The translations under genes were made by a program, and so were the position numbers. Positions 10,650-29,000 of a DNA stretch of 32,000 nt are shown piece after piece. The first letter of the stretch is position 1. Each line of letters starts with the position of its first letter. Source of the stretch: an archaeon (GTDB taxonomy: Archaea; Iainarchaeota; Iainarchaeia; Iainarchaeales; CSSED10-239); contig JBAYPN010000004.1 in NCBI GenBank assembly GCA_041677685.1, positions 1 through 32,000 of the forward strand. Reading direction: 5' to 3'. Under the pieces are notes generated by a model. The model saw only the letters and a list, made by a program, of their open reading frames with translations. It was not told the DNA's origin and searched no databases.

Positions 10650-10655
10650 AACCAA

Positions 10656-11234: not shown

Positions 11235-11338
11235 AAATAATTAATTTAAATTAGATATACCTTTTAAATATATTGTTTCAGAGATATAATAATATTTTAT
11301 AAGTTGAAAGAAAATTCACTATAGGTTAAAGAAAATAT

Positions 11339-12550
11339 ATGGTTATAAAAAAAGATCAAGAGCTTAATACTTTTAAAAAATCAATTCTTGGAATACAGAT
11401 GTTGTTTGTTGCTTTTGGGGCATTAGTCTTAGTTCCGCTACTTATAGGTATTGACCCTTCAGTTGCTTTATTTACAGCAGGTTGTGGAACTTTAATCTTC
11501 CATCTAATAACAAAAGGAAAGGTTCCTGTCTTTTTAGGAAGTTCTTTTGTCTTTATAGTCCCAATTATTGAAGGTGGTGTTCTTTTTGGTTTGCCTGGTG
11601 TCTTTGGTGGTTTAATAGTTTCAGGTTTAGTTTTTGTAATTGTGTCTTTGGTTATTAGACAAAAGGGGTTAGAATTTGTTCAAAGAATTTTTCCACCAAT
11701 CATTGTTGGTCCAGTGATTATGATCATAGGGTTGTCACTTGCATCTACAGGAATTGAGATGGCGTCTTCTAATTGGGTTCTAGCATTAATAACATTATTG
11801 ACTGCAATAATCATTGTAGTTTTTGGTAAAAAAAGTATAAAACTTTTACCAGTTATTGGAGGAATTACTGTTGCTTACATTATTGCAATTATTTTAAACA
11901 AAGTAGACTTTACTTTAATAAAGGAAGCTGCATGGTTTTCTGTTCCTCAATTTTTTCTACCATCTTTTAATTTAGGAGCAATTCTTTTCATGTTACCAAT
12001 TGCAATTGCACCAATGATTGAGCATATAGGAGATATGTATGCTATAAGCAGTGCAGTTAAGAAAAACTTTGTAAAGGATCCAGGAATACATAGAACCCTT
12101 TTAGGAGACGGAATTGCAACTATGTTTGCTGGTTTTTTAGGTGGTCCTCCAAACACCACCTACTCAGAAGTTACAGGTGCAATTATTCTTACAAAGTTGA
12201 AAGATCCTTCAATCTTAAGGATAGCAGCAGTAACAGCCATAGTCTTTTCATTTGTTGGAAAGATAAGTGGTTTTTTACAAACAATTCCTTCAAGTATTCT
12301 TGGAGGTATTATGATCCTACTATTTGGAATGATTACTGTTGTTGGAATTAAATCTTTGTCTGAAAATAAAATAAATTTAGATAAAACAAAAAATATGATA
12401 ATAGTTTCTGTTATGTTAATTTTTGGAGTGGGGGGAGCAGTAATTTCCTTTGGAACCTTTTCCTTAATTGGAGTAGGTTTAGCCTCTGTTGTTGGAATTG
12501 TTCTTAATTTAATTTTACCTAACAAAGAAATTAATTTAAAAGATTTATAA
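11339..12550 (+). CDS. NCS2-family nucleobase (uracil/xanthine) permease
   Basis: About 12 TM segments, with GGPPNTTYSEVTGAIILTK resembling the NCS2 signature region. Confidence 0.7.
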   Translation: MVIKKDQELNTFKKSILGIQMLFVAFGALVLVPLLIGIDPSVALFTAGCGTLIFHLITKGKVPVFLGSSFVFIVPIIEGGVLFGLPGVFGGLIVSGLVFVIVSLVIRQKGLEFVQRIFPPIIVGPVIMIIGLSLASTGIEMASSNWVLALITLLTAIIIVVFGKKSIKLLPVIGGITVAYIIAIILNKVDFTLIKEAAWFSVPQFFLPSFNLGAILFMLPIAIAPMIEHIGDMYAISSAVKKNFVKDPGIHRTLLGDGIATMFAGFLGGPPNTTYSEVTGAIILTKLKDPSILRIAAVTAIVFSFVGKISGFLQTIPSSILGGIMILLFGMITVVGIKSLSENKINLDKTKNMIIVSVMLIFGVGGAVISFGTFSLIGVGLASVVGIVLNLILPNKEINLKDL

Positions 12551-16441: not shown

Positions 16442-16627
16442 CTACTCTTCAATTGTAATACACGCAACTGGACAAACATCTGCAGCCTGTCTATTACAAC
16501 CAACCTCTTTTACTTCTGTCTTGATTGGCTTTGGCTTAGCTCCAACAAACTTCCAATTTTCAGGGCAAACTGAAACACAAGCTCCGCAACCAATGCATGC
16601 CTCATTATCTTGTTTAATCTTTACCAT
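16442..16627 (-). CDS. Small 4Fe-4S ferredoxin
   Basis: 61 aa with CIGCGACVSVCP and a distal CPVAC. Confidence 0.8.
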   Translation of the reverse strand: MVKIKQDNEACIGCGACVSVCPENWKFVGAKPKPIKTEVKEVGCNRQAADVCPVACITIEE

Positions 16628-16836
16628 CCTTAAAACACTTCCTTTCTTGTTTTTGTTTTTTCACAATTTTTTTTTAATTTAAATATTCTTCAACTTAATT
16701 TTCATATCAACTATCAGATTAATATTTTCTAATAGCCTCTATCCTATAGATAGAAAATAAACAAATATATAAATGTTTCTTTTTACTTATTAAATAATAG
16801 TCTTACAATATAAAATATAATTACAAAAGTTTAATT

Positions 16837-19068
16837 ATGATAGAAAAGATAAAACCACCAAGAGGAACACCTGGTGAAATATACAAGTCAATCTCTGTTG
16901 ATTCAAGAGACTTCTCTATAGATGAAAATAAACTTTTTAAAAAAAAAGAAAATGGTTATATTCTTTTTTGTAAAAGTATTTATAAAAAATTTCCTGGACT
17001 TGGAAAAAATGGAAAGTACAATTCTGAATATAAGTCTGCAGTTGATTTTCTAAGGTGGGACCTAAAAGCAGAAGAGTATACAGCAGGTACAAAGTTTGTA
17101 TTTTTATTTGGAATACTTGCAGCAATAATTATTTCTTTTTTAATATACATGTATGGCTTAGAGTCTTTAAAATCATTGTTTGGAAACATATACATCCCCA
17201 TAATGATTACCTTTGGTCTACCAATCATAATTTTTATATACATCTTTACTACCTTTCAAAAGTACCCATTAACCCAAGTTGGTTATGAGAAAGTAAGAGC
17301 ATTGACTTTTGTTCCTGAAATTTTAGGGTATATGATAATGTCAATGAAGCTTGTACCAAACTTAGAAAAAGCAATTGAATTTGCATCCAACCATGGTCAC
17401 GGAAAAGTAGCAGATGACCTTAAAAATCTATTATGGGAAGTTAAGGTAGGAATTAAGGGAAGTGTTTCAGAAGCCCTTGATGGTTTGGCATACAAATGGG
17501 GAGAAGTCTCTGAAGAACTAAAAAAAGCTTTAATGAAAATAAGGTCTTCAGTTATTGAAATTTCAGAAGCAAAAAGATACCAAATCCTAGATCAGACAAT
17601 GGATGACACTCTAACCTCAATTAAAGGCAAGTTAGAAGATTATGCAAGAAGTCTATCTCAACCAAGCATGGTTATCTTTTACATAGGAGTTTTACTTCCT
17701 TTACTTTTAATTATTATTCTACCAATTGGTTCTGCATTTTCAGGCTCAGCTCTAGCAAGACCAATCTACCTAATCTTAATTTACAATTTTGCAATCCCCA
17801 TTGGGTGTTTAGTTTATGCAAGAAGCATAATTAGAAATAGACCAGCCACATATGTTCCTGCTGTGATTCCTAATAAACATCCTGACCTTCCTAAAAGAAA
17901 CACAATTAAAATTGGAAAATCTTCAATTAATGTTTTTTTAATAATAATTTTAGTTGTTGGAACACTTGTTATTGGTAGTCTTTTTTTACAATCTAATTTT
18001 GGAAAAACAAAATATAATGTGTTATTAAATGCAGGGTATATAAAAGAAGGAGAATCAATAACTGCTGCAGAATTTAATTGTTCAAAAGAAGAACTTGCCC
18101 TAAAAGCAGAAAATCCAAAAATATTATGTCAAGCTGAAACTGAATTTTGGCAAGACCCTGATAATGATGTAACTCCTTATTTTTTAATCTATGGTCTACT
18201 GATTGCCTTTAGTTTAGGTTTCTCATTATTACTTTATTCTCAAAGTATTTACAAAAGAAAAATTCAACTTGAGTCTGAAAGGATGGAATATGAGTTTAAA
18301 GATGCACTTTACATAATTGCAAGTAGGCTTGGAGAAAATAAACCAATTGAGGATGCCTTAGCACACACTAGGGATTTTTTATCAAAATCATTAATTTCTA
18401 AAAGTATTTTTGCAAAAGCAATTGACAATATTAGGATTCTTGGTTTTAATTTAAATTCTGCATTGTTTGATGAAAATTATGGAGCTCTTAAAAATAATCC
18501 TTCAACAATTATTAACAGTGCAATGAGGTTGATGGTTGATTCTGTACAGTTGGGGGTTTCAGTTGCTGCAAAGACTTTGATGTCTTACTCTATGCAATTA
18601 AGAAACACTGATGAAGTTACAAAGACTTTAAAAGATTTGATTAGTGGAATTACTGGAACCTTAAACAGTATGGCTAAATTTATTGCTCCGATTGTTTTAG
18701 GAATAACTACTGGTCTTCAAAAAATAGTAATCTCAACTCTAACCTCTATTTCAAATAGTGGAGCTTTACAAGAAGTAAGTTCAGCAATTGAAGGTGTAGG
18801 AACTGCAATTGGAGGCACAGTAAACACAGCAAGTATTGAGGGCATGGCAACAATTGATCCAGCAACAATAGCACAACTTGCAAGCTCTACAACTTTTTTG
18901 ATAATTGTTGCAATTTATGTAATTGAGATTGTTATTATTATAACTTACTTTACAACAATGATAGAGGAAGACAACCTTGTTCTTGCTAAACTAAAGATTG
19001 CAAAAACATTACCAGTTGCAGTTATTTTGTTTATCTTAACAACTATCTTTACAAATATGTTATTTTGA
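16837..19068 (+). CDS. FlaJ/TadC/PilC-like type IV pilus platform membrane protein with two T2SS-F-like domains
   Basis: Two soluble helical modules (VPEILGYMIMSMKLVPNLEKAIEFASNHGHGKVADDLKNLLWEVKVGIKGSVSEAL, and YEFKDALYIIASRLGENKPIEDALAHTRDFL...NIRILGFNLNSAL). Each is followed by TM bundles. The gene sits directly upstream of the pilin genes. Confidence 0.6.
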   Translation: MIEKIKPPRGTPGEIYKSISVDSRDFSIDENKLFKKKENGYILFCKSIYKKFPGLGKNGKYNSEYKSAVDFLRWDLKAEEYTAGTKFVFLFGILAAIIISFLIYMYGLESLKSLFGNIYIPIMITFGLPIIIFIYIFTTFQKYPLTQVGYEKVRALTFVPEILGYMIMSMKLVPNLEKAIEFASNHGHGKVADDLKNLLWEVKVGIKGSVSEALDGLAYKWGEVSEELKKALMKIRSSVIEISEAKRYQILDQTMDDTLTSIKGKLEDYARSLSQPSMVIFYIGVLLPLLLIIILPIGSAFSGSALARPIYLILIYNFAIPIGCLVYARSIIRNRPATYVPAVIPNKHPDLPKRNTIKIGKSSINVFLIIILVVGTLVIGSLFLQSNFGKTKYNVLLNAGYIKEGESITAAEFNCSKEELALKAENPKILCQAETEFWQDPDNDVTPYFLIYGLLIAFSLGFSLLLYSQSIYKRKIQLESERMEYEFKDALYIIASRLGENKPIEDALAHTRDFLSKSLISKSIFAKAIDNIRILGFNLNSALFDENYGALKNNPSTIINSAMRLMVDSVQLGVSVAAKTLMSYSMQLRNTDEVTKTLKDLISGITGTLNSMAKFIAPIVLGITTGLQKIVISTLTSISNSGALQEVSSAIEGVGTAIGGTVNTASIEGMATIDPATIAQLASSTTFLIIVAIYVIEIVIIITYFTTMIEEDNLVLAKLKIAKTLPVAVILFILTTIFTNMLF

Positions 19069-19199
19069 AAATATATATTTGAAATTTAAATTATAAGGTT
19101 AGGTTTAGGTTATAAAAAATAAAAAATTAATAATTGAAAAAGAAAGATAAAAAGAATTATTCAAAATAATTGAAAAAAAATTATAAAAAGAAAGAGAAT

Positions 19200-19703
19200 A
19201 TGAAACTTGTAAAACATACAGAGAGAGGACAAGCCTTTGAAGTTTATAGACTATTGATTGCATTTATCATAGCTGTAGCTGTTATGTCAATCATTATTGT
19301 TATGGTTCAAAAAACAAATAAAGAATCAATTCTTTTAAGTTATCAAAATTTAGAACAAGGTTTTATCTCTGCAACTAAAAGTCCTGGGACAAGTAGTAAA
19401 ATGCCTTTTGTTATTGAGGATCTAAAATTGAAAGGAATGATAACTAAAAAAAAACTTTCAACAATTAGTGGACTTAAAGAAGAATGTATTATCTTTGATG
19501 CAGGACCAGGAATTGAAAAAACAGATATTGGTGTTGAGATTAATAAGATTTTAAAATTTGATACAACAGTTTATTGTAATTTTGGAAATGTTGATATTTT
19601 AGAAACTCCAATTATTCAGTTGTTAGAAAATAATACCCTTGAGAATTGCCCAGTATATTGTATAGTCTTTATGAACAAAAATCCAAAAGATATTTATCCA
19701 TAA
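19200..19703 (+). CDS. Archaeal type IV pilin-like protein (class III signal peptide)
   Basis: MKLVKHTERG|QAFEVYRLLIAFIIAVAVMSIIIVMV. Four Cys in the C-terminal domain. The track start at 19170 is TTG, so I chose the ATG at 19200. Confidence 0.65.
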   Translation: MKLVKHTERGQAFEVYRLLIAFIIAVAVMSIIIVMVQKTNKESILLSYQNLEQGFISATKSPGTSSKMPFVIEDLKLKGMITKKKLSTISGLKEECIIFDAGPGIEKTDIGVEINKILKFDTTVYCNFGNVDILETPIIQLLENNTLENCPVYCIVFMNKNPKDIYP

Positions 19704-19773
19704 AATTTAAAATAAGAATTAAAAACTATAATTATAAAAATAGAATCTAAAAAAAATAAAATTGAAGAAATTT

Positions 19774-20277
19774 ATGTTAAAAAAGAAAAACATTTTTAGT
19801 AAATTAAAATATCTAATAATTGCAATTATAATTTTAGTTCTTGGTTATTTTTTTGGGATTATTATTCTGTCAGTAATTGCAATAATAATTGTTTTAATTT
19901 CTATATTTTTTATAATCAGTTTGTTTTTTAGTAAAAGTCTATTAGCTTTAACAAACAGAAAGGTAAGATTGTTTATTGCTATGATCTTTTCAGGAGCTTT
20001 AAGTTATCTAATAATATATTTGTTAAGAAATCAGATTTTTAAAATTTCTTCTCAAGTTACACAAATAATTTTAATTTGGGTAATTGCTACACTGATGTTT
20101 GGAACATTATGGAATATTCTTGTAATTAGTAAAAGGAGAGTGTATTTAAAGGATAATGTTATAGATTATAATAAGATTGGAGAAAATAGAAATTTAAAAT
20201 TTAGAGATTTTGTTTTTATTTTAGTAATTCCAACAATAATCACTTTAATTTTTAATGTTCTTTATGTTGTTATTTAA
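19774..20277 (+). CDS. Hypothetical polytopic membrane protein embedded in the pilin cluster
   Basis: About 5 hydrophobic segments. The ATG at 19774 is preferred over the TTG at 19762. Confidence 0.45.
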   Translation: MLKKKNIFSKLKYLIIAIIILVLGYFFGIIILSVIAIIIVLISIFFIISLFFSKSLLALTNRKVRLFIAMIFSGALSYLIIYLLRNQIFKISSQVTQIILIWVIATLMFGTLWNILVISKRRVYLKDNVIDYNKIGENRNLKFRDFVFILVIPTIITLIFNVLYVVI

Positions 20278-20282
20278 ACAAG

Positions 20283-20322
20283 ATACATTTAAATATGTTT
20301 TGTCTTAAATTTTAAATATAAT
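20283..20322 (+). promoter_or_regulatory. 40-bp block with two tttaaata TATA-like boxes; putative promoter of pilin copy A
   Basis: Identical 40-mer atacatttaaatatgttttgtcttaaattttaaatataat is repeated at 21280-21319, in both cases upstream of a pilin start. Confidence 0.5.
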
Positions 20323-20378
20323 ATTAAATTTTAAAATCTAAAAGTTAATGTTTATATAATAAAAATAATATTTATTCT

Positions 20379-20384
20379 AGGAGG
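20379..20384 (+). promoter_or_regulatory. Shine-Dalgarno-like AGGAGG
   Basis: aggagg lies 8 nt upstream of the ATG at 20393. Confidence 0.6.
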
Positions 20385-20392
20385 AAAATAAT

Positions 20393-20950
20393 ATGTCAAA
20401 TTTAATTAATCAAAAAGGTCAAGCTTTTTCAACCTTTCAATTATTAATTGCAGCTGTAGTTGCTTTAGCTTTACTTGGTGTTCTAATGCCAATTATCATG
20501 GGTAACTTTTCAATAGGTAAAAGTCCAAGTGATTCTGCACAACAATATGCAAAAACACAAATTAATAATGCTGGTAGTTTAAATTACACAGACACATTAA
20601 AATTTAAAAAAGATGATTCAATCTCAGCAACAGGTGTGGCTGATGGAATTGATGTAGACAGAGACCAAGTTTATGTAGTAGTTCCAACGGATCTAATTGG
20701 TAACACATTTAGTGATCCTAGTACTTCAAGTTATAAACAAACAAAATATTTAAAGAGTACAAAAGCAGATTACAAAATTGGTGTTATTTGTGATTATAAA
20801 GAAAGTATAGAAGTAAGTTTAGGATATAATGGTCTTACTGGTGGACCAAATAATGAAGATGATTTTTTCTCAATAATTAAAGATTTAGATGATTTTAAAG
20901 ATCTTGACAATAGCATAAAAGTTTGTATCCTATTTCCAAAGAGAGGATAG
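20393..20950 (+). CDS. Archaeal type IV pilin, candidate major pilin (copy A)
   Basis: MSNLINQKG|QAFSTFQLLIAAVVALALLGVLMPII. It has its own promoter-like block and the strongest RBS in the cluster. Confidence 0.7.
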   Translation: MSNLINQKGQAFSTFQLLIAAVVALALLGVLMPIIMGNFSIGKSPSDSAQQYAKTQINNAGSLNYTDTLKFKKDDSISATGVADGIDVDRDQVYVVVPTDLIGNTFSDPSTSSYKQTKYLKSTKADYKIGVICDYKESIEVSLGYNGLTGGPNNEDDFFSIIKDLDDFKDLDNSIKVCILFPKRG

Positions 20951-20990
20951 TAACTTATAAAAAATATAATTTAGAAAGAAGAGAAATATT

Positions 20991-21197
20991 ATGAATAAAA
21001 TAAAATTAAAGTTTAAAAGTATCTTAGAGGATAACAAAGCTCAAGCAGAGTCAAACAGTATCTTCTTTCTAATTATAATTGCTATTGTTGCAGTTGTCCT
21101 AATTGCAATTGTAAAACCAATGTTTAACAAATCAGTTAAAGCCTCAGCAAAACAAGCAAACCTCCCAAATCAAGGTGTTACCCAACCTTTAAAATAA
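20991..21197 (+). CDS. Mini pilin-like protein, 68 aa
   Basis: EDNKA|QAESNSIFFLIIIAIVAVVLIAIV followed by only about 27 residues. Confidence 0.45.
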   Translation: MNKIKLKFKSILEDNKAQAESNSIFFLIIIAIVAVVLIAIVKPMFNKSVKASAKQANLPNQGVTQPLK

Positions 21198-21213
21198 GCA
21201 TAAATGTATAATA

Positions 21214-21245
21214 TCAATTACAATTTACTTTTATAAATTATTTTA
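21214..21245. repeat. 32-bp block tcaattacaatttacttttataaattatttta, repeated at 21910-21941
   Basis: Exact match read directly. It marks the 3' boundary of both duplicated units. Confidence 0.85.
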
Positions 21246-21279
21246 ATTTTTAATGTCTTATAAAAATTATACATCTAAA

Positions 21280-21319
21280 ATACATTTAAATATGTTTTGT
21301 CTTAAATTTTAAATATAAT
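21280..21319 (+). promoter_or_regulatory. Second copy of the 40-bp TATA-like promoter block
   Basis: 40/40 identical to 20283-20322. Confidence 0.5.
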
Positions 21320-21347
21320 TATATTAATATAAAAAAAGAGAATAAAT

Positions 21348-21904
21348 ATGTTAAATTTAATAAATCAAAAGAAAAGGGCCTTTCAAACTTCCAAATATTT
21401 ATATTACCTATAATGATTTTAATTTTACTTTCTTTTTTAATTGCAGTATTACCTGTAAGTCCTGACCCTAAGTTGAAAAATATAAATTTAGTTATAGAAC
21501 ATTCCATAAAAGCACAAATTAATACTACTGGTAGCTTAGGTTACACAGACACATTAAAATTTAAATATAAGGATTCTATTTCTGCAACAAGTTTGACTGA
21601 TGGACTTGATGTAGACAGAGATCAAGTTTACGTAGTAGTTCCAACGGATCTAATTGGTAACACATTTAGTGATCCTAGTACTTCAAGTTATAAACGAACA
21701 ATATATTTAAAGAGTACAAAAGAAGATTACAAAATTGGTGTTATTTGTGATTATAAAGAAAGTATAGAAGTAAGTTTAGGATATAATGGTCTTGCTGGTG
21801 GATCAAATGATGAAGATGATTTTTTCTCAATAATTAAAGATTTAGATGATTTTAAAGATCTTGACAATAGCATAAAAGTATGTATCCTATTTCCAAAAAG
21901 ATGA
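21348..21904 (+). pseudogene. Pilin paralog (copy B) interrupted by a frameshift
   Basis: The ATG at 21348 reads MLNLINQKKRAFQTSKYLYYL then stop. The frame of ORF 21413-21904, read upstream, gives ...KSKEKG|LSNFQIFILPIMILILLSFLIAVLPV. Removing one copy of the aaaag/aaaag duplication at 21367-21376 gives MLNLINQKG|LSNFQIF... in frame to 21904. Confidence 0.6.
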
Positions 21905-21909
21905 TTGTT

Positions 21910-21941
21910 TCAATTACAATTTACTTTTATAAATTATTTTA
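21910..21941. repeat. Second copy of the 32-bp boundary block
   Basis: 32/32 identical to 21214-21245. Confidence 0.85.
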
Positions 21942-22012
21942 TTTTCATAAAATATTTAAAAACACTAAAAATCAAAAAGCTTTTTAATTACTTCTTTTTA
22001 TATTTAAGTATT

Positions 22013-22618
22013 ATGCAAAAGATATTATCCACAATCAAAAAAGATAAAGCACAAGTAAGTGCTCCCTTTGAACTACTGGTTGCAATTATTGTTATGGCCT
22101 TTGTTATTCTTGCAGGAACCTATGCCCTAAACAACCTTTCAGAAAACACATGCCTTGGAAATAAAAGACAAAACTTTAGCGAACTTGTAACTGCCTTAAG
22201 AGATGTTACCTTAGGTTCAGATTTAACTTACAGAGATGTAGATTTTAGAACAAAGGCTTGCTTTAATGAAAAGTATGAGTTTGTGCAACTAAATACTTAT
22301 GAAGACTCAGGTAAATGTAGTGCCTACTGTGGAACAGGTTCTAATTGCCTATTACTTGAATATAAATATCAAAAAGATGATGATTATAAATACCCAATAG
22401 AACCAATCTGCACACATCTTCCCTCAACTGTTAACTTTGCAACTAAACTTTCAGAATGTGGGGACGAAGATATACTTGAAGAAGATTATATGATAATAAA
22501 TCCAAAAGGGCTAACAAAAGATAACCAAGGAAACATCCCCTTAGGTAGATATAAGATTTACAGAGCAAATCAAGAGAGTGCAAGCACGACTGTTATTTGC
22601 CTTCTTAAAAAAAAGTGA
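22013..22618 (+). CDS. Cys-rich pilin-like protein (class III signal peptide)
   Basis: MQKILSTIKKDKA|QVSAPFELLVAIIVMAFVILAG. About 9 Cys in the C-terminal domain. The TTG extension from 21905 was rejected. Confidence 0.6.
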   Translation: MQKILSTIKKDKAQVSAPFELLVAIIVMAFVILAGTYALNNLSENTCLGNKRQNFSELVTALRDVTLGSDLTYRDVDFRTKACFNEKYEFVQLNTYEDSGKCSAYCGTGSNCLLLEYKYQKDDDYKYPIEPICTHLPSTVNFATKLSECGDEDILEEDYMIINPKGLTKDNQGNIPLGRYKIYRANQESASTTVICLLKKK

Positions 22619-22626
22619 AATAAGAT

Positions 22627-23307
22627 ATGTTTGAATTTACCTTATCAAAATTAAATTTATTAATCTTTGTTACAGCAATAGCAGCAATTATGCTATTTTT
22701 TCTAAACACAGTAAATGCAAATTTAAAAACAAGACAAAGTTTTGAATTAACCTACAAGATTGGCAAAGAGCTAAAATCAGGGATTGATGGAAAAAGTTAC
22801 TGCTCCATAAAATATATAAAAATTCCAAAAACAATTAAAACTAATCAAGGCTCTTCAAACATATTTAATATAAATTATAAATTTAATATTGCACAATATG
22901 ATTATGAAAATCCCAACATCAATTCTTCACTTAACAAAAAACTAATAATTGCAATTACTGATCAAAAAAATAAAAAGATCTATGCAGCCTATGATATTGA
23001 CTTTGAAGGAAACTTTACTTTCTATGAATCAGAATATGATTTAGATACTGGAAAATATAACTTTCTAGAAAAAAAAGATGTAGGGATCTATGATCCTCTA
23101 AAAGTAAAAAGTATAGACACAACTCTTTTGTTTATTAAAAAAATAAATAATGGAAAATTAGATTACTACATTATACCTTGTGAGAAAAAAAATTCAATAT
23201 ATTCTTGTAAAGATTTTGTATGTAACAATGATGATGGATTATTTGATGATATTACCTGTAAGGATGTAGAGTTATGCATTACCGACGTAGGAGAAAATAC
23301 AACATGA
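22627..23307 (+). CDS. Pilin-like / N-terminally anchored protein
   Basis: MFEFTLSKLNLLIFVTAIAAIMLFF. The leader is very short and has no G/A-Q site. Several Cys near the C-terminus. Confidence 0.45.
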   Translation: MFEFTLSKLNLLIFVTAIAAIMLFFLNTVNANLKTRQSFELTYKIGKELKSGIDGKSYCSIKYIKIPKTIKTNQGSSNIFNINYKFNIAQYDYENPNINSSLNKKLIIAITDQKNKKIYAAYDIDFEGNFTFYESEYDLDTGKYNFLEKKDVGIYDPLKVKSIDTTLLFIKKINNGKLDYYIIPCEKKNSIYSCKDFVCNNDDGLFDDITCKDVELCITDVGENTT

Positions 23308-23837
23308 TATTTAAAAAAAGAGAAAAGGGTTTTATTGGGGCAATTGGTGATGACCTACCAAGCCTTATTCCAATTTTTATTGGTTTAATTATCTTTTTTT
23401 CTGTATTTTTAAGCACATACAATCTCTATAAAGATAAAACAAATCTCTATTCTTTAGAGCAAGAAGCAGTTATAATTTCTTTAACTCTAAAAGAAGAACC
23501 AATAATTTCAAGTTATGAGATCTTTCAACATCAATGTGATTTAGTAAACACTAACAAAAATTGGACAGCTTTTGTTACAGACTTAGATCTAAATTCAGAT
23601 AATCACAAACCCATAGACACCTCTGATATAGAAAATTCAATTGTTGCTTTTATAGATGAGGTTTCAAATGATAAAAACATTTTTATCTGCAACAATAAGT
23701 TTAAAGACAAAGTCTTAGACACACAAGATAATTTTTTTCAAACACAAAATAGAAAGATAGTATACATGTTTCCAATAACCTTACAAGAAGACAACTTTGC
23801 AAAGACTAAAAAATTATATGTAATTGTTTGGGAGTAA
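23304..23837 (+). CDS. Pilin-like protein (class III-like signal)
   Basis: MIFKKREKG|FIGAIGDDLPSLIPIFIGLIIFFSVFL. ATGA start/stop overlap with the upstream gene, and GGAG 11 nt upstream. Confidence 0.5.
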   Translation: MIFKKREKGFIGAIGDDLPSLIPIFIGLIIFFSVFLSTYNLYKDKTNLYSLEQEAVIISLTLKEEPIISSYEIFQHQCDLVNTNKNWTAFVTDLDLNSDNHKPIDTSDIENSIVAFIDEVSNDKNIFICNNKFKDKVLDTQDNFFQTQNRKIVYMFPITLQEDNFAKTKKLYVIVWE

Positions 23838-23844
23838 AATAGAT

Positions 23845-24609
23845 ATGATACCAATTATTAAAAATAAAAAAGCACAAGCAGCAATCACAGATGCTTTATT
23901 TTTCTTAACAATAATTGTGACCTTAGCAGTTATTCTCTTTAAGTTTTCTGCAACCTATGGAGACAGAGTTACTCTTGCAACAAACAATCTTTACTTTAAA
24001 GAATACTCCAATTCTGCACTAAAAACTATCTTCTATGCAGAAATTCCTCTTGACTTTTCAAAAGAAATTAGTTCTTCAAAAGAAACAGACTACCTAATGA
24101 CTGCAATTAAGGAAGATTATTTCTCAGATATGCAGATTGGAAGTTCAAAAGATATTAACACCATGATGATAATTAATAATTCAGATATCTCCAAATATAA
24201 TCTTTATAATCTCATTAAAGTTGTAATGAAGCCTTTACCAAATTATGACTATATGTTTTATCTATACAACACTAATGATTCTAAATTTGAATTTTTTACC
24301 TTAAAAGTTACAAACTTTGATTATGAGAAAGCAGTGTTTCCTCATCAACTAGACATTAATGCAACAGATTCAAATTATTATCTTTGTGATCCTCTAAGTT
24401 ATGCAACAATTAGGGATAGTTTTTCTGAGATCAGTGACATCTACTCTTCTTCAATTCCATTACAGTTTCCAGTTACTATTGGAGATAGAGACACAATCAA
24501 CATGACAGCAACATTTGCGATTTGGCCAGCATCAGTAACATTAACCAAAACAGATGAAGAGAATAACAACATAATTAGTAACTTTAAATGTAAAGCTTAC
24601 ACAGACTAA
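23845..24609 (+). CDS. Pilin-like protein (class III signal peptide)
   Basis: MIPIIKNKKA|QAAITDALFFLTIIVTLAVILF. GGGAG RBS upstream. The ATG at 23845 is preferred over the track start at 23824. Confidence 0.55.
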   Translation: MIPIIKNKKAQAAITDALFFLTIIVTLAVILFKFSATYGDRVTLATNNLYFKEYSNSALKTIFYAEIPLDFSKEISSSKETDYLMTAIKEDYFSDMQIGSSKDINTMMIINNSDISKYNLYNLIKVVMKPLPNYDYMFYLYNTNDSKFEFFTLKVTNFDYEKAVFPHQLDINATDSNYYLCDPLSYATIRDSFSEISDIYSSSIPLQFPVTIGDRDTINMTATFAIWPASVTLTKTDEENNNIISNFKCKAYTD

Positions 24610-25358
24610 AACTTTAAACCCAAGCCATCATCAGAATTATCAATTTCAAAATCATCTAATTCTTCGTCTTTTAAAAGATCTTTAATATCGTCTTCTTTCT
24701 TTCTAGTCTTTGATTCTTCTTTCTGTTTTACTTTTTTATTTTCAGAGTCTTTTTTAATTTCTTCTTTTTGCCTATCTCTTTTAGATCCTTTTTTAGAATC
24801 TTTTTTACTTTCTTTGTCTTCTTTACTTTTAATTTCTTCTTCTAGTTCTAGATTTTTTTCTTTAGAGACTTTATCTTTCTTCATCTGGTCTCTAATATCA
24901 TTTGATTCAACTTGAGAATAAACATCTTCAACTAAATTTCTTAGATCTTCTTTATTTTCATTAATATTTAAATTTTCTTTTGATCTATTTTCTGAAGCCC
25001 TATAATGTCTATTTGTCTTAATTGCACTTTCAATTTTATTTTTTTCAACATCTATATTTTTATTTTTTAATTGTGTGTAAATAGCCTCTGCAATTACATT
25101 AACATCTGGTTTTATCATTTCAGAAAGGTTAGTTAATATCTTATTAATAATTATTGCCTTTTCTTCATTGTTAACAACTTTAGTTTTTTTATCTTTTTTA
25201 AAGTCAAGATTTTCTAAAGTAATTTCACTATTATCAATACTATTATAGTTATCTTTTTTCTTAGAAGTTATATCAGGCTGAGAAGTATAGACTATCTCTC
25301 CATCCTTATATTTTCTATAATGTCTTCTTTCTCTTCTACTTAGCTTGTTATTATCCAT
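24606..25358 (-). CDS. Hypothetical highly charged (K/E/D-rich) protein with an acidic C-terminal tail
   Basis: 250-aa ORF of low complexity (KEDKESKKDSKKGSKRDRQKEE...), ending DDFEIDNSDDGLGLKF. Confidence 0.45.
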   Translation of the reverse strand: MDNNKLSRRERRHYRKYKDGEIVYTSQPDITSKKKDNYNSIDNSEITLENLDFKKDKKTKVVNNEEKAIIINKILTNLSEMIKPDVNVIAEAIYTQLKNKNIDVEKNKIESAIKTNRHYRASENRSKENLNINENKEDLRNLVEDVYSQVESNDIRDQMKKDKVSKEKNLELEEEIKSKEDKESKKDSKKGSKRDRQKEEIKKDSENKKVKQKEESKTRKKEDDIKDLLKDEELDDFEIDNSDDGLGLKF

Positions 25359-25399
25359 AATGTCTTCTTTCTCTTCTACTTAGCTTGTTATTATCCATA
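25317..25399. repeat. Perfect 40-bp tandem duplication (2.07 copies) spanning the start codon and first 13 codons of the 24606-25358 gene
   Basis: Positions i and i+40 are identical for i = 25317-25359, read directly. Confidence 0.9.
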
Positions 25400-25525: not shown

Positions 25526-26026
25526 ATGGAAAATAATATATTTCAAATAATACTAAATTATGTTTGGTTTATAATCAAATTGTTATTCTATGCTTTAATT
25601 TTAGCAATACCTCTTACATTAATAACTCTACCTTTAAGGAATTGGTTTTTAAAAATTAATAAAAAAATTGAAAATTTCTTATTTAGTTCTTCAATTATTA
25701 CTTATGTTATTAGCTATCTACTGTTGTTAGCATTCTACTTTATACCGATCATAAATTCAGGTTCTTTTCAAACAACAGATAAGTTATTGATTTTTATTTT
25801 AATCCACATAGTAAGGCTTGCAATTATTAATTTACTAATAACAGCAATAATTATTATCTTTATATTTATAATTTTATTTATTTATGAAAAGTTTAATAAA
25901 AATTCTAAACAATTTAATTTCTTTAATTTATGGAAAAGTACAGCTATAGGTTTAATTATTTTTTTCATAATTATAATCTTATTTCCAAAATTAATAGCTA
26001 TGTTAATATATTTAATATTTGTATAA
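25526..26026 (+). CDS. Hypothetical polytopic membrane protein
   Basis: 166 aa, 4-5 hydrophobic segments. It ends 18 nt upstream of the giant ORF. Confidence 0.45.
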   Translation: MENNIFQIILNYVWFIIKLLFYALILAIPLTLITLPLRNWFLKINKKIENFLFSSSIITYVISYLLLLAFYFIPIINSGSFQTTDKLLIFILIHIVRLAIINLLITAIIIIFIFIILFIYEKFNKNSKQFNFFNLWKSTAIGLIIFFIIIILFPKLIAMLIYLIFV

Positions 26027-26044: not shown

Positions 26045-29000
26045 ATGAAGTTTGAAAAGAATGTCTCAAAGATAATATCAATATTTTTTTTAATTCTATT
26101 TATAAATAGTATCTTTGCATATAATGTGGATTTTTCAAGATTTGACAACCCCACAGAAAGTGCAAACAATTTCTATTTACTAGATTCTGATATTAAAACT
26201 GACTTTGGAGGTGGTTGTTATACTGAAGAACTTCCTTCAGATGCAGTTGAAAGGATTTGGAATGAGTTGTTGGTTAAAGGTTTTAAAGTAGACATAGTTT
26301 CTTCAGACCAACCAGCAAAAACAGATAGAGACTCACTTGAAAAAAGTGATGTGATGCTAACAAACCAGGATAGTAAGGGTGGAGACATCATCATGAAAAA
26401 AGAAATGCCTTCCCAAGAAATGGATCCTTTAGAGATTCCAACTATTTTAGGTCAAAGCTGTTATGGTCCATTTTCATATGGTATTAATTTGACAGAAACA
26501 ATTAGGATTGGAAAATGTGAAAATGATACTAATTCTGCATGTTATCTAGAAAGTGATGGACTCTTTAGACAAAATGGAAATGAAGGCTTTTGGACAGAAA
26601 TGGAAGCTGTTGGTAAAGATGTTCTTGACATGGTTGGAGTAAATATTTTAAAACAGGAAGCAGGAGAAATAATTAACCCAGACTATGATTATAATACAGA
26701 TGTTGATCTAGGAATCTTTACTGAAATGTCCTATGAAGAGTTAGCTTTTTTTAAAAGTATACAACTAGATGATGCAAATAAAGACACAATCAATTTAGAA
26801 AGAACAAAAGCAATCATGGACAAAGCAATTCAAAATAGTGTAAAAACAGAAATTTTTAATTCAGGAATGGAGACAACCTGTAGTGGTGAAAATTGTTATA
26901 TTAATGTGTATTCTTTGTTTGATAAAATGTTTAATCAGTTTTTCTCAGCAGACCTTGTAGCAACTTCAGTCTCACCTTTACTATGGAAATTCTCTTCAAG
27001 AATTTTTTCAGGAATTGGAAATGTTGCAAAAAAGCAATTTGGAATTGAGTCTGCTGGTCAAAAGTTATTAAAGAATGGAACTATTAAGAAAGGTCACTTT
27101 TGGGATAATGTTCTAAACAATAATAATAGTCCTATGAAGGCTCTTAAAAAAACTATGGATATTAGAGTTGCAGAAAGAAATATTGGAAGATATGCAGATA
27201 ACCTTTCTTCAAGTTATTCATCTATTGAAAAACAACTAAACAGATATGATCTAAAACCACAATTTGAAAAATATCTAAAATCTTTAAAATCAAAAAAGAA
27301 TATTGAAGAGATCACAAATGAATTTTTTAAGTCTGCGGAGTTTACAAAATTAAACAAACCCCAACAAAGAATCTTCTTTGAAATTGCTCAAAAGTATCAA
27401 ACAAATTTAAAGATCACACAAATTTTCCAAGAACAATTAGGTAAAGATATTGATGATATTTTGAGTGCAACAACAACTGTTAGAGGTGCATCAATTCCAA
27501 GAAAAGATATTCTTTCAAACTCCAAATATACTTTAGATGATTTTTATAGATCTTTGACAAAAGAAGAATATGAGACTCTTCTTTCTAAACAGCAAAAAAT
27601 GAATCAACTAAACAAAAGTTGGGGAGATTACACTAACGGTCATGTTTCTTGGGATGATGGTGTAGAAAATTTAAATGTAGTTAAGAATAGAAGTTTTACA
27701 ATTCATAATCCAGCAACTGGAGAAGATGAACTAACACTTATTAACAAAGTTAAAAAATTAGATCAAACAATTCCTGGTAGCTTAGGAGAACTGCCAGCAG
27801 GAAGTAAAGCCTTAGTCCCAACAGACCCTACAAAATCTATAGGAACAGGTTTTGACAAAATGGCACAAACCAAAAAAGTAACAGTTACCTTCTCAGATGG
27901 ATCAACAGCAGAAATCACAAAATTGATTCCATATAAAGAATCTGAAATCTCAAGCATTGGACAACAATTCTTTGCAAGTGATTTACCAAAGTTCCAAAGT
28001 AGACCTGACATCTATATTGAATATTTATCAAAAAGTGGAGCTACAAAAAAAGTAAGAGCAACAAACCTTATAGTTGATGATATTGATCAAGTAGGCAGCT
28101 TAAAATGGTTTTCTGTAGATGATGTTGCGATGTTGACTGATGATGAAATTATAAAATATGGTTATGATCCTTTTGAACTTGCTTATGGTTACTCAACTAC
28201 AAAAGGAACAGGAATTATAAAAACTATGGATGCTGTTAATGACAAGGTTGTAAAGGTTATGGAAGACCAAGGTTGGGTAACAGGAAGGGGAGTTAACTGG
28301 ATTAACCAACAAATGAAAGCTCAAGACACGTCCTCTTACCAAAAGAAAGCATTTAACATGTTAACACGTAATGGACAAGCATATATAAAAAATTGGGTTT
28401 ATTGGGAAGTTCAGACAGCAGGAAATACTCTTCCATTTATTGGAGATACTTTCTCTAAATATAGTATGTATCAATTACCAGAAACTTACACTTCTGTAAA
28501 AATAGATCACCAACTTTCAGGAGAAATCTACAATGATTCATATATTGATTTCTTTGTAAACACAGGTTCTGATCAAGGGGACCTTTTTATGCAATACCTT
28601 AATTCCATGGTTTTCTGGTTAGTAAATATTGGAAAAGAAGTCTTAGACGAAACTGACTGGAAAGCAACTCAAGCAATAAGCGATTGGGGTAAGCAAATAA
28701 CAGAAGGGCAAATAAGAAGAAGCTCAGTAGATGATGTTGCAGTCTTTACAGATGGTGAGAACGGAGGTTGTGATAAGGCTTGCTCAATTAAAATAGGAAA
28801 TTCTCAACTCTTAGAAAAAACAACTCTTGAAAAATCCCTAAAAACAGACACCAATGTGGAAAATCAGACACCAATGCCTCAAAAGTTAGAAAAAGTAAAC
28901 ATCATTTACAGTACCCCAAGCGGAATTACAATTCCAAATTATATTCTTGAAAATACTGATCCAAAGAACATAGAAGAAGAAGGACAAACATTAATTTCTT

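What the first reader, a model, noticed from the sequence alone, without database searches (positions are those of the whole stretch)
16837..24609. Type IV pilus-like locus with a platform protein and many pilins but no ATPase or prepilin peptidase nearby
In archaeal type IV filament loci (archaellum, Aap, Ups and similar), the platform gene usually sits beside its FlaI/PilB-type ATPase. Here the platform gene is preceded by a divergent ferredoxin gene and followed directly by pilins. No P-loop ATPase or A24-type peptidase lies anywhere in the 32 kb. Five pilin-like N-termini share a [KR]-[GA]|Q pattern and two more carry KG|F/L (23304 and copy B); 22627 lacks such a site.
Basis: partly seen in the sequence, partly recalled or inferred. 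Interest (0 to 1): 0.65.

Follow-up and report, generated by a model that had tools for sequence, protein, structure and literature searches.

The report
Pilus gene cluster severed from its ATPase
This is half of a type IV pilus gene cluster shared across a phylum of tiny archaea (Iainarchaeota); in this lineage an old rearrangement removed the motor ATPase gene that normally sits next to it, so the missing ATPase most likely reflects gene order, although its present location could not be found.

Summary
Window 16837-24609 (+) encodes a 743-aa platform-like membrane protein. Behind it lie six genes with conserved class III signal-like N-termini, one pilin-like gene without the basic motif (22627), a clade-specific membrane protein and a frameshifted pilin duplicate. 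No P-loop ATPase or A24 peptidase lies in the 32 kb, nor in about 51 kb of a near-identical 65.6-kb contig.

The locus is the right-hand part of a cluster conserved across Iainarchaeota (Diapherotrites, DPANN). In 68 of 80 species genomes a ~760-aa T2SSE/FlaI-type ATPase lies directly upstream of the orthologous platform gene, with the same pilin series and the same giant surface protein downstream. In the window's low-GC clade (platform at least 58% identical, context checked in four species) the platform instead follows a divergent ferredoxin gene.

The clade keeps 88% of the residues at columns invariant in ATPase-linked platforms, so the system looks functional with an unlinked ATPase. ATPase genes without a platform exist in at least ten other Iainarchaeota genomes and on JGI contigs. 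I could not place one in the same genome as a severed platform.

Verdict: an ordinary kind of system, a new member with an unusual gene order. The location of the ATPase remains open.

The parts
16442..16627 (-). Small 2x[4Fe-4S]-type ferredoxin gene, transcribed divergently. It is the new upstream neighbour that replaces the ATPase.
   Evidence: Precomputed Pfam Fer4 families. The same gene (57-59% identical) lies directly upstream of the platform in L004, L099 and L138.
16628..16836 (.). AT-rich intergenic region of 209 bp. This is the junction where the ancestral ATPase-platform link was broken, and presumably holds the promoter of the pilus genes.
   Evidence: Sequence read; there is no room for an ATPase remnant. 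In the joined loci whose gene calls I saw, the platform starts from a 4-nt overlap to about 100 nt after the ATPase gene.
16837..19068 (+). 743-aa polytopic platform protein (TadC/FlaJ/PilC-like).
   Evidence: Pfam T2SSF E=1.5e-3 on residues 166-296, and 25 of 32 family members match T2SSF. There are 312 homologues of 725-810 aa. AF2 model has pLDDT 78.7 and is all-helical. Local Foldseek match to the OutF (GspF) cytoplasmic domain 5nbg_B: probability 0.84, TM 0.56. The orthologue is next to the ATPase in 68 of 80 genomes.
19200..19703 (+). Pilin-like protein p1, MKLVKHTERG|QAFEVYRLLIAF...
   Evidence: The family is found in 20 loci with K/R at -2, G/A at -1 and Q at +1.
19774..20277 (+). 167-aa polytopic membrane protein specific to this clade. 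It is not a recognisable prepilin peptidase.
   Evidence: Homologues only in L085, L099 and L138. No Pfam hit. No GxGD/GxHD motif and only three Asp.
20393..20950 (+). Pilin p3, candidate major pilin, MSNLINQKG|QAFSTFQLLIAAVVALA...
   Evidence: It is the most widely detected pilin family (38 members in 36 loci), with invariant G-1, Q+1 and two invariant Cys. It is the only pilin duplicated here.
20991..21197 (+). Small (68 aa) pilin-like protein p4, ...EDNKA|QAESNSIFFLIIIAIV...
   Evidence: The family is found in 27 loci, 49-76 aa long.
21348..21904 (+). Partial tandem duplicate of p3 ('copy B') with a frameshifted leader. It is a likely pseudogene or a silent copy.
   Evidence: Bases 21508-21905 are 93% identical over 400 aligned positions to 20551-20948. 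The ATG at 21348 is followed by a 1-nt frameshift at the KG|Q codons, and the ORF restarts at 21413. It is present in all strain contigs and absent from the other species.
22013..22618 (+). Pilin-like protein p5, ...KKDKA|QVSAPFELLVAIIVMAF...
   Evidence: The family is found in 29 loci with consensus kG|QEsAPFELLvAvi.
22627..23307 (+). Pilin-like or anchor protein p6, MFE-FTLSKLNLLIFVTAIAAI...; it has no basic -2 residue.
   Evidence: The family N-terminus is MLG|F(T/I)LSKLNLLI in 28 of 43 loci. The -1 residue is E in all five members of this clade.
23304..23837 (+). Pilin-like protein p7, MIFKKREKG|FIGAIGDDLPSLIPIF...
   Evidence: The family is found in 29 loci with consensus kG|FiGPIGDDLPSLIP.
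23845..24609 (+). Pilin-like protein p8, MIPIIKNKKA|QAAITDALFFLTIIV...
   Evidence: The family is found in 26 loci with consensus kG|QAA.TDALyFL.
24606..25358 (-). 250-aa K/E/D-rich protein on the opposite strand. A minus-strand gene holds this position throughout; sequence similarity is detectable only within this clade.
   Evidence: Homologues at the same position in L004, L085, L099 and L138. A minus-strand gene holds this slot in the joined loci too. No Pfam hit.
25526..26026 (+). 166-aa polytopic membrane protein that always precedes the giant protein.
   Evidence: A 163-179-aa gene holds the same position in every locus whose gene calls I saw. Similarity is detectable in L085 and L138.
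26045..31045 (+). 1666-aa surface protein with an N-terminal signal or anchor and a C-terminal transmembrane segment with a basic tail. It is a conserved companion of the pilus cluster.
   Evidence: Homologues in 24 related loci, including ATPase-linked ones. No significant Pfam domain.

Best explanation
The locus encodes the membrane platform and the filament subunits of an archaeal type IV pilus-like machine: one likely major pilin and five to six minor or accessory pilin-like proteins.

Inferred mechanism, by analogy with characterised type IV filament systems. The prepilins insert into the membrane through their N-terminal hydrophobic helix. A prepilin peptidase encoded elsewhere cuts after [KR]-[GA]. 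The platform, driven by a hexameric FlaI/TadA-type ATPase, lifts the subunits out of the membrane into a filament.

Shown here. In the common ancestor of this low-GC Iainarchaeota clade a rearrangement cut the ancestral cluster between the ATPase and platform genes. That cluster ran: giant protein, archaeosortase, membrane protein, ATPase, platform, pilins, membrane protein, giant protein. The right arm was left behind a divergent ferredoxin gene.

Inferred, not shown. The ATPase still exists elsewhere in the genome and works in trans. Its location was not found.
For: 1. Orthology and collinearity with ATPase-linked loci. L002, L095, L097 and 68 of 80 GTDB loci carry a ~760-aa PF00437 ATPase directly upstream of a platform 42-50% identical over its full length. 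The same pilin families follow in the same order, then the 166-179-aa membrane protein and the giant protein.
2. The split is clade-wide and stable. The same F420-ligase / AP-endonuclease / ferredoxin genes lie upstream in the window species, L004 (63% identical platform), L099 (60%) and L138 (60%). These represent all major branches of the clade in my neighbour-joining tree. The nearest outgroup, P0044 (50%), is joined.
3. Purifying selection. 144 columns are invariant in 22 ATPase-linked platforms. The split-clade sequences keep 88% of the residues at these columns, and 113 columns are unchanged in all ten. They are concentrated in residues 141-335 and 471-645, and most changes are conservative. 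All pilin ORFs are intact apart from the extra duplicate, and the cleavage-type motifs are conserved.
4. Separation of ATPase and platform occurs elsewhere in the phylum. Ten GTDB genomes have the ATPase with no platform downstream, and three of them still have the archaeosortase upstream (L065, L083/L086 and, by position only, L082). One JGI lineage (L115-L117, GC 0.30-0.31) has a long-branch ATPase without a platform. Its nearest relative is L035, which is also the nearest neighbour of the split-clade platform in the tree.
5. Literature: archaeal ATPase/TadC modules are inferred to act on pilin sets encoded in trans (PMC4858521). DPANN pilus loci with FlaI, TadC and unannotated signal-peptide proteins have been noted (PMC6393860).
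Against: No ATPase could be assigned to any genome of the split clade. Comparing protein accession numbers and contig prefixes between genomes with a lone ATPase and genomes with a severed platform gave no match.

The monophyletic group of lone ATPases has locus GC of 0.29-0.43, against 0.25-0.28 for the split-clade loci. In the platform tree the split clade is not sister to that group's joined relatives.

If the ATPase evolved at the usual rate, one at 65-88% identity to the outgroup ATPase should have appeared among the 80 best GTDB loci. None did.

T2SSF homology is weak. It falls below Pfam's cut-off for the window protein. The second repeat is undetectable by Pfam or by an hhalign comparison of the two halves. 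Profile searches of PDB sequences and a whole-model Foldseek search gave nothing significant. Neither cleavage of the pilins nor a filament has been observed.
Confidence: 0.7

Rival explanations
1. The cognate ATPase was lost in this clade. The platform and pilins are powered by a non-orthologous secretion ATPase from another type IV filament-like system in the same genome.
For: No ATPase of the expected similarity turned up for the clade in either protein search or in the genome scan. AT-rich, ~690-745-aa relatives only 37-44% identical exist among the library representatives: P0342, P0343, P0349, P0351 and P0361. The literature proposes that ATPase/TadC modules and pilin sets can be mixed (PMC4858521).
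Against: In characterised systems the platform and ATPase form a specific pair. The platform's conserved cytoplasmic regions are retained nearly unchanged, which argues for the same partner. The organisms and gene contexts of the AT-rich candidates are unknown. The result lists were truncated at 120 or 80 entries, so absence from them is weak evidence.
Confidence: 0.12
2. The cluster is a relic. With the ATPase gone, the platform and pilin genes are no longer used for filament assembly and are decaying or have been put to another use.
For: No ATPase or peptidase in about 51 kb. One pilin copy is frameshifted. p6 has E at the -1 position in this clade, which would not fit a prepilin peptidase site.
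Against: There are 43 sequence clusters (at 90% identity) of full-length platform genes spanning 58-95% identity. 88% of the family-invariant residues are retained. All eight other genes are intact and collinear in four species. The frameshifted gene is an extra, species-specific duplicate, and the original is intact.
Confidence: 0.05
3. The machine is not an adhesive pilus. It is a short pseudopilus-type device that helps to export or anchor the very large surface proteins flanking the cluster, in the manner of a type II secretion system.
For: A 1500-1770-aa surface protein always follows the cluster. In joined loci a 2450-2800-aa protein and an archaeosortase precede it. There are many minor pilin-like proteins, as in type II secretion pseudopili.
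Against: There is no evidence for secretion substrates, and archaea have no outer membrane to cross. One pilin family (p3) is the most widespread and has the conserved Cys pair typical of a major filament subunit. This reading overlaps with the best explanation rather than excluding it.
Confidence: 0.1

Closest known systems
The ATPase-linked version of the same cluster in other Iainarchaeota / Diapherotrites, for example archaeon GW2011_AR10 (CP010424.1, about 640-662 kb, locus L027), Candidatus Iainarchaeum andersonii (AQRS01000042.1, L034) and JGI contig Ga0209514_10000002 (L002)
   Same: The platform is orthologous (45-50% identical over its full length). Pilin families p1 and p3-p8 appear in the same order with the same cleavage-type motifs. 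The same small membrane protein and giant surface protein lie downstream.
   Different: Those loci have a ~760-aa T2SSE ATPase immediately upstream of the platform, sometimes carrying an intein. An archaeosortase and another giant protein lie further upstream. The window has a ferredoxin gene there instead, together with a clade-specific 167-aa membrane protein and a frameshifted pilin duplicate.
Archaeal adhesion type IV pili as surveyed by Makarova, Koonin and Albers 2016 (PMC4858521), for example Haloferax PilB/PilC with PilA pilins, Sulfolobus Aap and Ups, and Methanococcus Epd pili (system names from my own knowledge)
   Same: A TadC/FlaJ-like platform, pilins with class III signal peptides cut after [KR]-[GA], several minor pilins, and associated surface proteins.
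   Different: In those systems the ATPase and platform genes are normally kept together, and it is the pilin genes that may be unlinked. Here the platform stays with the pilins and the ATPase is the unlinked part. None of the pilins matches a Pfam or NCBIfam family or a solved structure by sequence.
DPANN type IV pilus loci noted by Makarova, Wolf and Koonin 2019 (PMC6393860, Figure 2A)
   Same: A pilus-type ATPase (written 'FliI' in the paper) and TadC sit together with unannotated proteins that carry signal peptides and were read as divergent pilins, plus specific surface proteins.
   Different: That description concerns loci that contain the ATPase. I could not check which genomes were shown, because figures are not held in the library.
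Bacterial Tad/Flp pilus (TadA ATPase with TadB and TadC platform proteins); own knowledge
   Same: The ATPase belongs to the same superfamily (PF00437, called VirB11/FlaI-type in JGI annotations) and the platform carries the T2SSF domain.
   Different: Tad has two separate half-size platform proteins and outer-membrane parts. Here a single 743-aa protein carries both halves, with an insert of about 135 residues between them.

Membership tests
Type IV filament machinery (archaeal type IV pilus) | Polytopic platform protein with a T2SSF (PF00482) domain, first repeat | tested here: met
   The window protein scores E=1.5e-3, 18.9 bits, below the 25.2-bit cut-off, but the match covers the whole profile. 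25 of 32 family members match, best E=2.7e-6. Several relatives carry a precomputed PF00482 hit or the NCBI name. Local Foldseek match to the OutF/GspF cytoplasmic domain: probability 0.84, TM 0.56. Weak by sequence; strong once synteny with the ATPase is added.
Type IV filament machinery (archaeal type IV pilus) | Second T2SSF repeat in the platform | tested here: inconclusive
   No Pfam hit for the C-terminal halves of six family members. hhalign of the two halves gave probability 0.7%. The AF2 model shows a similar run of helices in residues 448-640 and 143-333, and family-invariant residues cluster in both regions.
Type IV filament machinery (archaeal type IV pilus) | Secretion ATPase (T2SSE, PF00437) encoded next to the platform | tested here: not met
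   None in the window, nor in about 51 kb of the near-identical contig, nor within 10 kb in L004, L099 and L138. Present in 68 of 80 related genomes.
Type IV filament machinery (archaeal type IV pilus) | A secretion ATPase somewhere in the same genome | not testable with these tools
   No tool gave access to a whole genome of the clade. Matching by accession number and contig prefix failed. Candidate lone ATPases exist (L065, L115-L117, L082, L083) but are not linked to this clade.
Type IV filament machinery (archaeal type IV pilus) | Subunits with class III signal peptides: a short basic leader, G/A at -1, then a hydrophobic helix | tested here: met
   Five ORFs pass a strict pattern and a sixth fails by one residue. 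There are none elsewhere in the six frames of the window. The sites are conserved in six families across 20-36 loci, with roughly eight-fold enrichment downstream of platforms. The pattern is my own approximation of FlaFind, not the program itself, and cleavage is untested.
Type IV filament machinery (archaeal type IV pilus) | Prepilin peptidase (A24 family: PibD/FlaK/EppA type) | not testable with these tools
   None in the window or the 51-kb span by Pfam. The two small polytopic proteins lack GxGD/GxHD motifs. The rest of the genome could not be searched. In archaea this gene is often unlinked (own knowledge; PMC4858521 lists dedicated peptidases in only some loci).
Type IV filament machinery (archaeal type IV pilus) | Pilin fold: a long N-terminal helix plus a beta-rich globular domain | tested here: inconclusive
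   The single-sequence AF2 model of p3 has pLDDT 40. Only the N-terminal helix (residues 5-38) is confident. The tool did not accept locus-derived homologues for the alignment. The profile search of PDB sequences found nothing.
Conserved Iainarchaeota ATPase-platform-pilin cluster | Orthologous platform, collinear pilin families p1 and p3-p8, and the downstream membrane protein and giant protein | tested here: met
Conserved Iainarchaeota ATPase-platform-pilin cluster | Left arm: archaeosortase, ~330-aa membrane protein and ~760-aa ATPase upstream of the platform | tested here: not met
   It is replaced by the ferredoxin, AP-endonuclease and F420-ligase genes in the window and in three further species of the clade.

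The most novel reading that the evidence does not exclude
A whole clade of Iainarchaeota has lost the dedicated secretion ATPase yet keeps the platform and seven pilin-like genes under strong selection. The filament would then be assembled with a non-cognate ATPase, possibly one supplied by a host cell, since DPANN archaea are often episymbionts. Alternatively the platform-pilin set has a function that needs no ATPase.
Probability: 0.06. Interest if true: 0.75.

Novelty: new member of a known kind. Interest (0 to 1): 0.3.

Why it matters
DPANN archaea are thought to depend on contact with other cells, and surface filaments are prime candidates for making that contact.

This work shows that Iainarchaeota share one conserved pilus cluster with seven recognisable pilin-like families. 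None of these has a Pfam or NCBIfam family, and the candidate major pilin has no sequence relative among solved structures.

It also shows that the ATPase-platform pair can be split and stay split over long evolutionary times. That pair is usually treated as an inseparable core when genomes are scanned for such systems. Pipelines that require the two genes to be adjacent would miss the system in this clade. If the ATPase proved to be truly absent, the finding would become much more interesting.

Tried and rejected
Locating the ATPase
- Accession and contig matching. I compared NCBI protein accessions and contig prefixes of severed-platform genomes with those of lone-ATPase genomes. The platform side was GCA_015657915.1, GCA_028691725.1, GCA_029563815.1 and locus tags PHN22, PK685, PLK55, WCX82, V1824 and P5513. 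The ATPase side was JAQUZG01, CAZSDT01, CAZKBG01, JAVHOV01, JAPLVQ01, JBAXCL01, JBAZUY01, CAYLVV01, CABMEU01 and DYDN01. No genome was shared.
- AT-rich ATPase hits. I picked them by amino-acid composition and looked up their contigs. P0182 and P0263 turned out to be joined loci of other species.
- Contig-length matching between the ATPase and platform hit lists works for joined clades but gave nothing for the split clade.
- AT-rich codon-restricted DNA pattern for the ATPase. Rejected, because even low-GC genomes use GAC and TAC in this gene, and the second ATPase clade lacks the motif.
- The 1.84-billion representative library gave divergent AT-rich ATPases (37-44% identical), but no organism or context could be attached to them.
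- Shared neighbouring genes between lone-ATPase loci and split-clade loci: none.
- IMG/VR viral contigs: no relative of the platform.

Homology and structure
- Profile searches of PDB sequences with the platform, its first repeat and pilin p3: no meaningful hits.
- Whole-model Foldseek of the platform against PDB: no hit with E below 0.1. Only local similarity to OutF and to a PilC model.
- Single-sequence AF2 model of pilin p3: unusable, pLDDT 40.

Ideas dropped
- Either small polytopic protein (19774, 25526), or the ~330-aa membrane protein upstream of the ATPase in joined loci, as a hidden prepilin peptidase. No A24 match was found for any of them, and the two window proteins lack GxGD/GxHD motifs.
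- Gene conversion between the two p3 copies among strains. The strain contigs are identical there.

Full report
WHAT IS IN THE WINDOW

The window has about 27% G+C. Its proteins find their best matches in uncultured DPANN archaea labelled Diapherotrites, 'Candidatus Iainarchaeum' or 'ainarchaeum'.

All the following genes lie on the + strand between 16837 and 24609.

| Coordinates | Gene | N-terminus or note |
|---|---|---|
| 16837-19068 | 743-aa polytopic protein (platform) | |
| 19200-19703 | p1 | ...TERG\|QAFEVYRLLIAF |
| 19774-20277 | 167-aa polytopic membrane protein | |
| 20393-20950 | p3 | ...NQKG\|QAFSTFQLLIAAVV |
| 20991-21197 | p4, 68 aa | ...DNKA\|QAESNSIFFLIII |
| 21348-21904 | truncated duplicate of p3 ('copy B') | frameshifted leader |
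| 22013-22618 | p5 | ...KDKA\|QVSAPFELLVAII |
| 22627-23307 | p6 | MFEFTLSKLNLLIFV |
| 23304-23837 | p7 | ...REKG\|FIGAIGDDLPSLIP |
| 23845-24609 | p8 | ...NKKA\|QAAITDALFFLTII |

Downstream come a K/E-rich gene on the minus strand (24606-25358), a 166-aa membrane protein (25526-26026) and a 1666-aa surface protein (26045-31045). Upstream, transcribed divergently, is a 61-aa ferredoxin gene (16442-16627).

CHECKING THE OBSERVATION

Class III signal-like N-termini. I used a pattern of my own: [KRS][GA], then Q/F etc., then an uncharged hydrophobic stretch within 12 residues. It approximates FlaFind and is not that program. Run on every ORF of at least 45 aa in all six frames, it finds five hits, all in 19.2-23.8 kb on the + strand, and none elsewhere. 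p8 fails by a single lysine.

No ATPase or peptidase. Pfam on all ORFs of at least 80 aa shows transporters, an FAD-dependent protein, a U32 peptidase, an F420 ligase-like protein, a xylose-isomerase-fold (AP endonuclease 2) protein and others. It shows no T2SSE, AAA or A24 peptidase family. The only Walker-A-like string sits inside pilin p3 and is a chance match.

Wider span. An ENA contig, k141_2429808 (65.6 kb), is 99.98-99.99% identical to the window. Reading 10 kb beyond each end of the window on that contig adds no ATPase or A24 peptidase. The fetched span is positions 364-51131.

The absence is therefore real over about 51 kb. It is reproduced in independent ENA and Logan assemblies of the same population.

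IS THE 743-AA PROTEIN A PLATFORM?

By sequence alone the case is weak. The evidence for it is as follows.
- Pfam T2SSF scores E=1.5e-3, below the curated cut-off, although residues 166-296 align to the whole profile.
- 25 of 32 diverse family members match T2SSF, best E=2.7e-6.
- Some relatives carry the precomputed domain or the NCBI name 'type II secretion system F family protein'.

These tests gave nothing.
- The C-terminal half has no Pfam match in six members.
- hhalign does not relate the two halves.
- Profile searches of PDB sequences find nothing.

An AF2 model built on 32 homologues is confident (pLDDT 78.7) and all-helical, with two similar runs of helices. Foldseek gives only a local match to the cytoplasmic domain of OutF/GspF (5nbg_B, probability 0.84, TM 0.56) and a weaker one to a PilC model.

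Gene context settles the matter; see the next section.

RELATED LOCI: THE ATPASE IS NORMALLY ADJACENT

The platform family has 312 detectable members of about 725-810 aa. On a 1.19-Mb JGI contig (L002; platform 45% identical) the gene directly upstream is a 764-aa PF00437 (T2SSE) ATPase. The genes downstream are the same pilin series, then a 179-aa membrane protein and a giant protein.

I scanned one genome per GTDB species with an alignment of this ATPase. The scan found 325 relatives and kept the best 80.

| Arrangement in the 80 loci | Number |
|---|---|
| Platform follows the ATPase on the same strand | 68 |
| ATPase with no platform downstream | 10 |
| Undetermined, because the contig ends | 2 |

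The joined loci include the complete genome GW2011_AR10 and Ca. Iainarchaeum andersonii.

Further upstream, the joined loci whose gene calls I saw usually have a ~330-aa membrane protein, an archaeosortase (PF09721) and a 2450-2800-aa protein.

Across 41 loci with enough sequence, the 7 kb after the platform holds a median of six class III-like ORFs. The background elsewhere is 0.77 per 7 kb. Each of six pilin families keeps K/R at -2, G/A at -1 and Q or F at +1 in 20-36 loci.

All five members of the window's clade have E instead of G at -1.

The giant protein has homologues in 24 loci.

THE SPLIT IS A SHARED TRAIT OF ONE CLADE

Platforms at least 58% identical to the window's form 43 sequence clusters at 90% identity. 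In my neighbour-joining tree they form one long branch.

I could see upstream context in four species.

| Species / locus | Platform identity |
|---|---|
| Window population | reference (100%) |
| L004 (GCA_015657915.1) | 63% |
| L099 (JGI Ga0499518_000010, 286 kb) | 60% |
| L138 (GCA_029563815.1, basal branch) | 60% |

All four have F420 ligase, then AP-endonuclease-2, then the ferredoxin gene, and then the platform. None has an ATPase within 10 kb. The nearest outgroup (P0044, 50%, L097) is joined: an intein-containing ATPase overlaps the platform start by 4 nt.

All these loci have 25-28% G+C.

The cut therefore fell between the ATPase and platform genes in the clade's ancestor and has been stable since.

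IS THE SEVERED HALF STILL IN USE?

- 144 alignment columns are invariant in 22 ATPase-linked platforms. The ten split-clade sequences keep 88% of the residues at these columns, and 113 columns are unchanged in all ten.
- The invariant columns cluster in residues 141-335 and 471-645. Most changes are conservative, such as M to L, R to K and F to W.
- All pilin genes are intact and collinear in the four species.

This pattern argues for continued function, with a partner ATPase encoded elsewhere. That conclusion is an inference.

WHERE IS THE ATPASE?

I could not find it. The evidence divides as follows.

The phylum tolerates separation. Ten GTDB genomes carry the ATPase without a platform. Eight of them form one clade in the ATPase tree (L051, L058, L067, L068, L071, L072, L076, L082). 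L083 and L065 are separate cases. L065 and L083 keep the archaeosortase just upstream, so each is a left arm without a right arm.

A candidate from metagenomes. A JGI scan seeded with the L065 ATPase found one more lineage without a platform: L115-L117, GC 0.30-0.31, on a very long branch and 58-59% identical to everything else. Its nearest relative is L035. L035 is also the nearest neighbour of the split-clade platform in the tree. This is my best candidate partner, but the link is weak.

Evidence against a simple pairing.
- No genome is shared between the lone-ATPase and severed-platform sets, by accession number or contig prefix.
- The eight-member ATPase clade has higher G+C (0.29-0.43).
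- The outgroup's ATPase is 88% identical to P0165, yet nothing at 72-88% identity without a platform appeared.

The hit lists are cut at 80 or 120 entries, so a partner at about 58% identity would have been missed by design.

MECHANISM

Shown here: the platform-like protein, the conserved class III-type N-termini, the orthology to ATPase-linked clusters, and the signs of purifying selection.

Inferred from established knowledge of type IV filament systems and from PMC4858521:
- The prepilins are cut after [KR]-[GA] by an unlinked A24 peptidase.
- The platform, coupled to a hexameric ATPase, polymerises p3 into a filament. I take p3 as the major pilin because it is the most widespread family, has an invariant Cys pair and is the only one duplicated.
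- p1, p4, p5, p7 and p8 act as minor pilins.
- p6 may stay as an uncleaved membrane anchor in this clade.

The constant company of giant surface proteins and, ancestrally, an archaeosortase suggests a wider cell-surface module. A secretion or anchoring role cannot be excluded.

COMPARISON WITH WHAT IS KNOWN, AND NOVELTY

Archaeal type IV pili are well described. ATPase/TadC modules are normally kept together, while pilins may be encoded in trans (PMC4858521). DPANN loci with a pilus-type ATPase (written 'FliI' in the paper), TadC and unannotated signal-peptide proteins have been pointed out (PMC6393860).

This locus is a member of that kind. What is unusual is which link is broken: the platform stays with the pilins and the ATPase is elsewhere. 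I found no paper describing this Iainarchaeota cluster or its split.

I rate it a new member of a known kind, with modest interest. The interest would rise sharply only if whole genomes of the clade proved to lack the ATPase.

LIMITS

- Trees are neighbour-joining on corrected identities, and their deep nodes are unreliable.
- The class III test is my own pattern, not FlaFind.
- The pilin fold could not be modelled.
- No whole genome of the clade could be searched.

Noticed in passing
window 21348-21904, compared with 20393-20950: Species-specific tandem duplicate of the candidate major pilin. The C-terminal 400 aligned positions are 93% identical, but the leader is knocked out of frame by a 1-nt change at the KG|Q codons. 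The arrangement (an intact expressed copy plus an N-terminally defective copy) recalls silent pilin cassettes, but the available strain contigs show no exchange between the copies.
   Followed up: partly
window about 25317-25396: A 40-bp perfect tandem duplication covers the start codon and first codons of the minus-strand gene 24606-25358. It is present in the window and in L091 but is single-copy in strain contig L093 (ENA ERZ27247376).
   Followed up: partly
L097:6186-10004, L095:10001-13822, L100:148-3960 and many protein hits (P0150, P0151, P0172, P0178, P0182 and others): Many Iainarchaeota pilus ATPases carry an intein of about 510 aa (LAGLIDADG type). Where I mapped it (L097), it is inserted between '...IIVQED' and 'TLE(V/I)PV...'. 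Some library representatives are about 1770 aa long and may carry two inteins.
   Followed up: no
L002:7700-9994 and all ATPase relatives: The ATPase is unusually long, about 760 aa against roughly 500-550 for typical FlaI (own knowledge). It has a conserved N-terminal extension that starts 'GGK(R/K)xLxFDCxxCxYxxS(L/I)xDDxxC(R/M)xH', which looks like a possible metal-binding motif. Representatives only about 40% identical share it.
   Followed up: no
L002:5922-6470, L095:7574-8143, L097:4604-5104, L065:9471-9947, L086:1-665: An archaeosortase gene (PF09721) is a regular upstream neighbour of the pilus ATPase, next to a 2450-2800-aa protein with faint SpaA/CarboxypepD_reg-like matches. This suggests that surface-protein anchoring and pilus assembly are encoded as one module in this phylum.
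   Followed up: partly
L051, L058, L067, L068, L071, L072, L076, L082 (ATPase at about 10001-12300 in the full-flank loci): A monophyletic group of eight species, including a 'Candidatus Forterrea' genome, has the ATPase with no platform gene downstream. This mirrors the window's arrangement and is probably an independent split. Where their platform genes are is unknown.
   Followed up: partly
L015, L017, L024 (record titles): Three contigs carrying this archaeal ATPase-platform cluster sit in genome bins labelled Chloroflexi/Chloroflexota or Falkowbacteria. These are probably binning contaminants.
   Followed up: no
window 22627-23307 and its orthologues: The p6 family has an ultra-short MLG|F start in most of the phylum. 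All five members of the ATPase-less clade have E at -1, and a few other lineages have D. This may mark a switch from a cleaved to an uncleaved N-terminus.
   Followed up: partly
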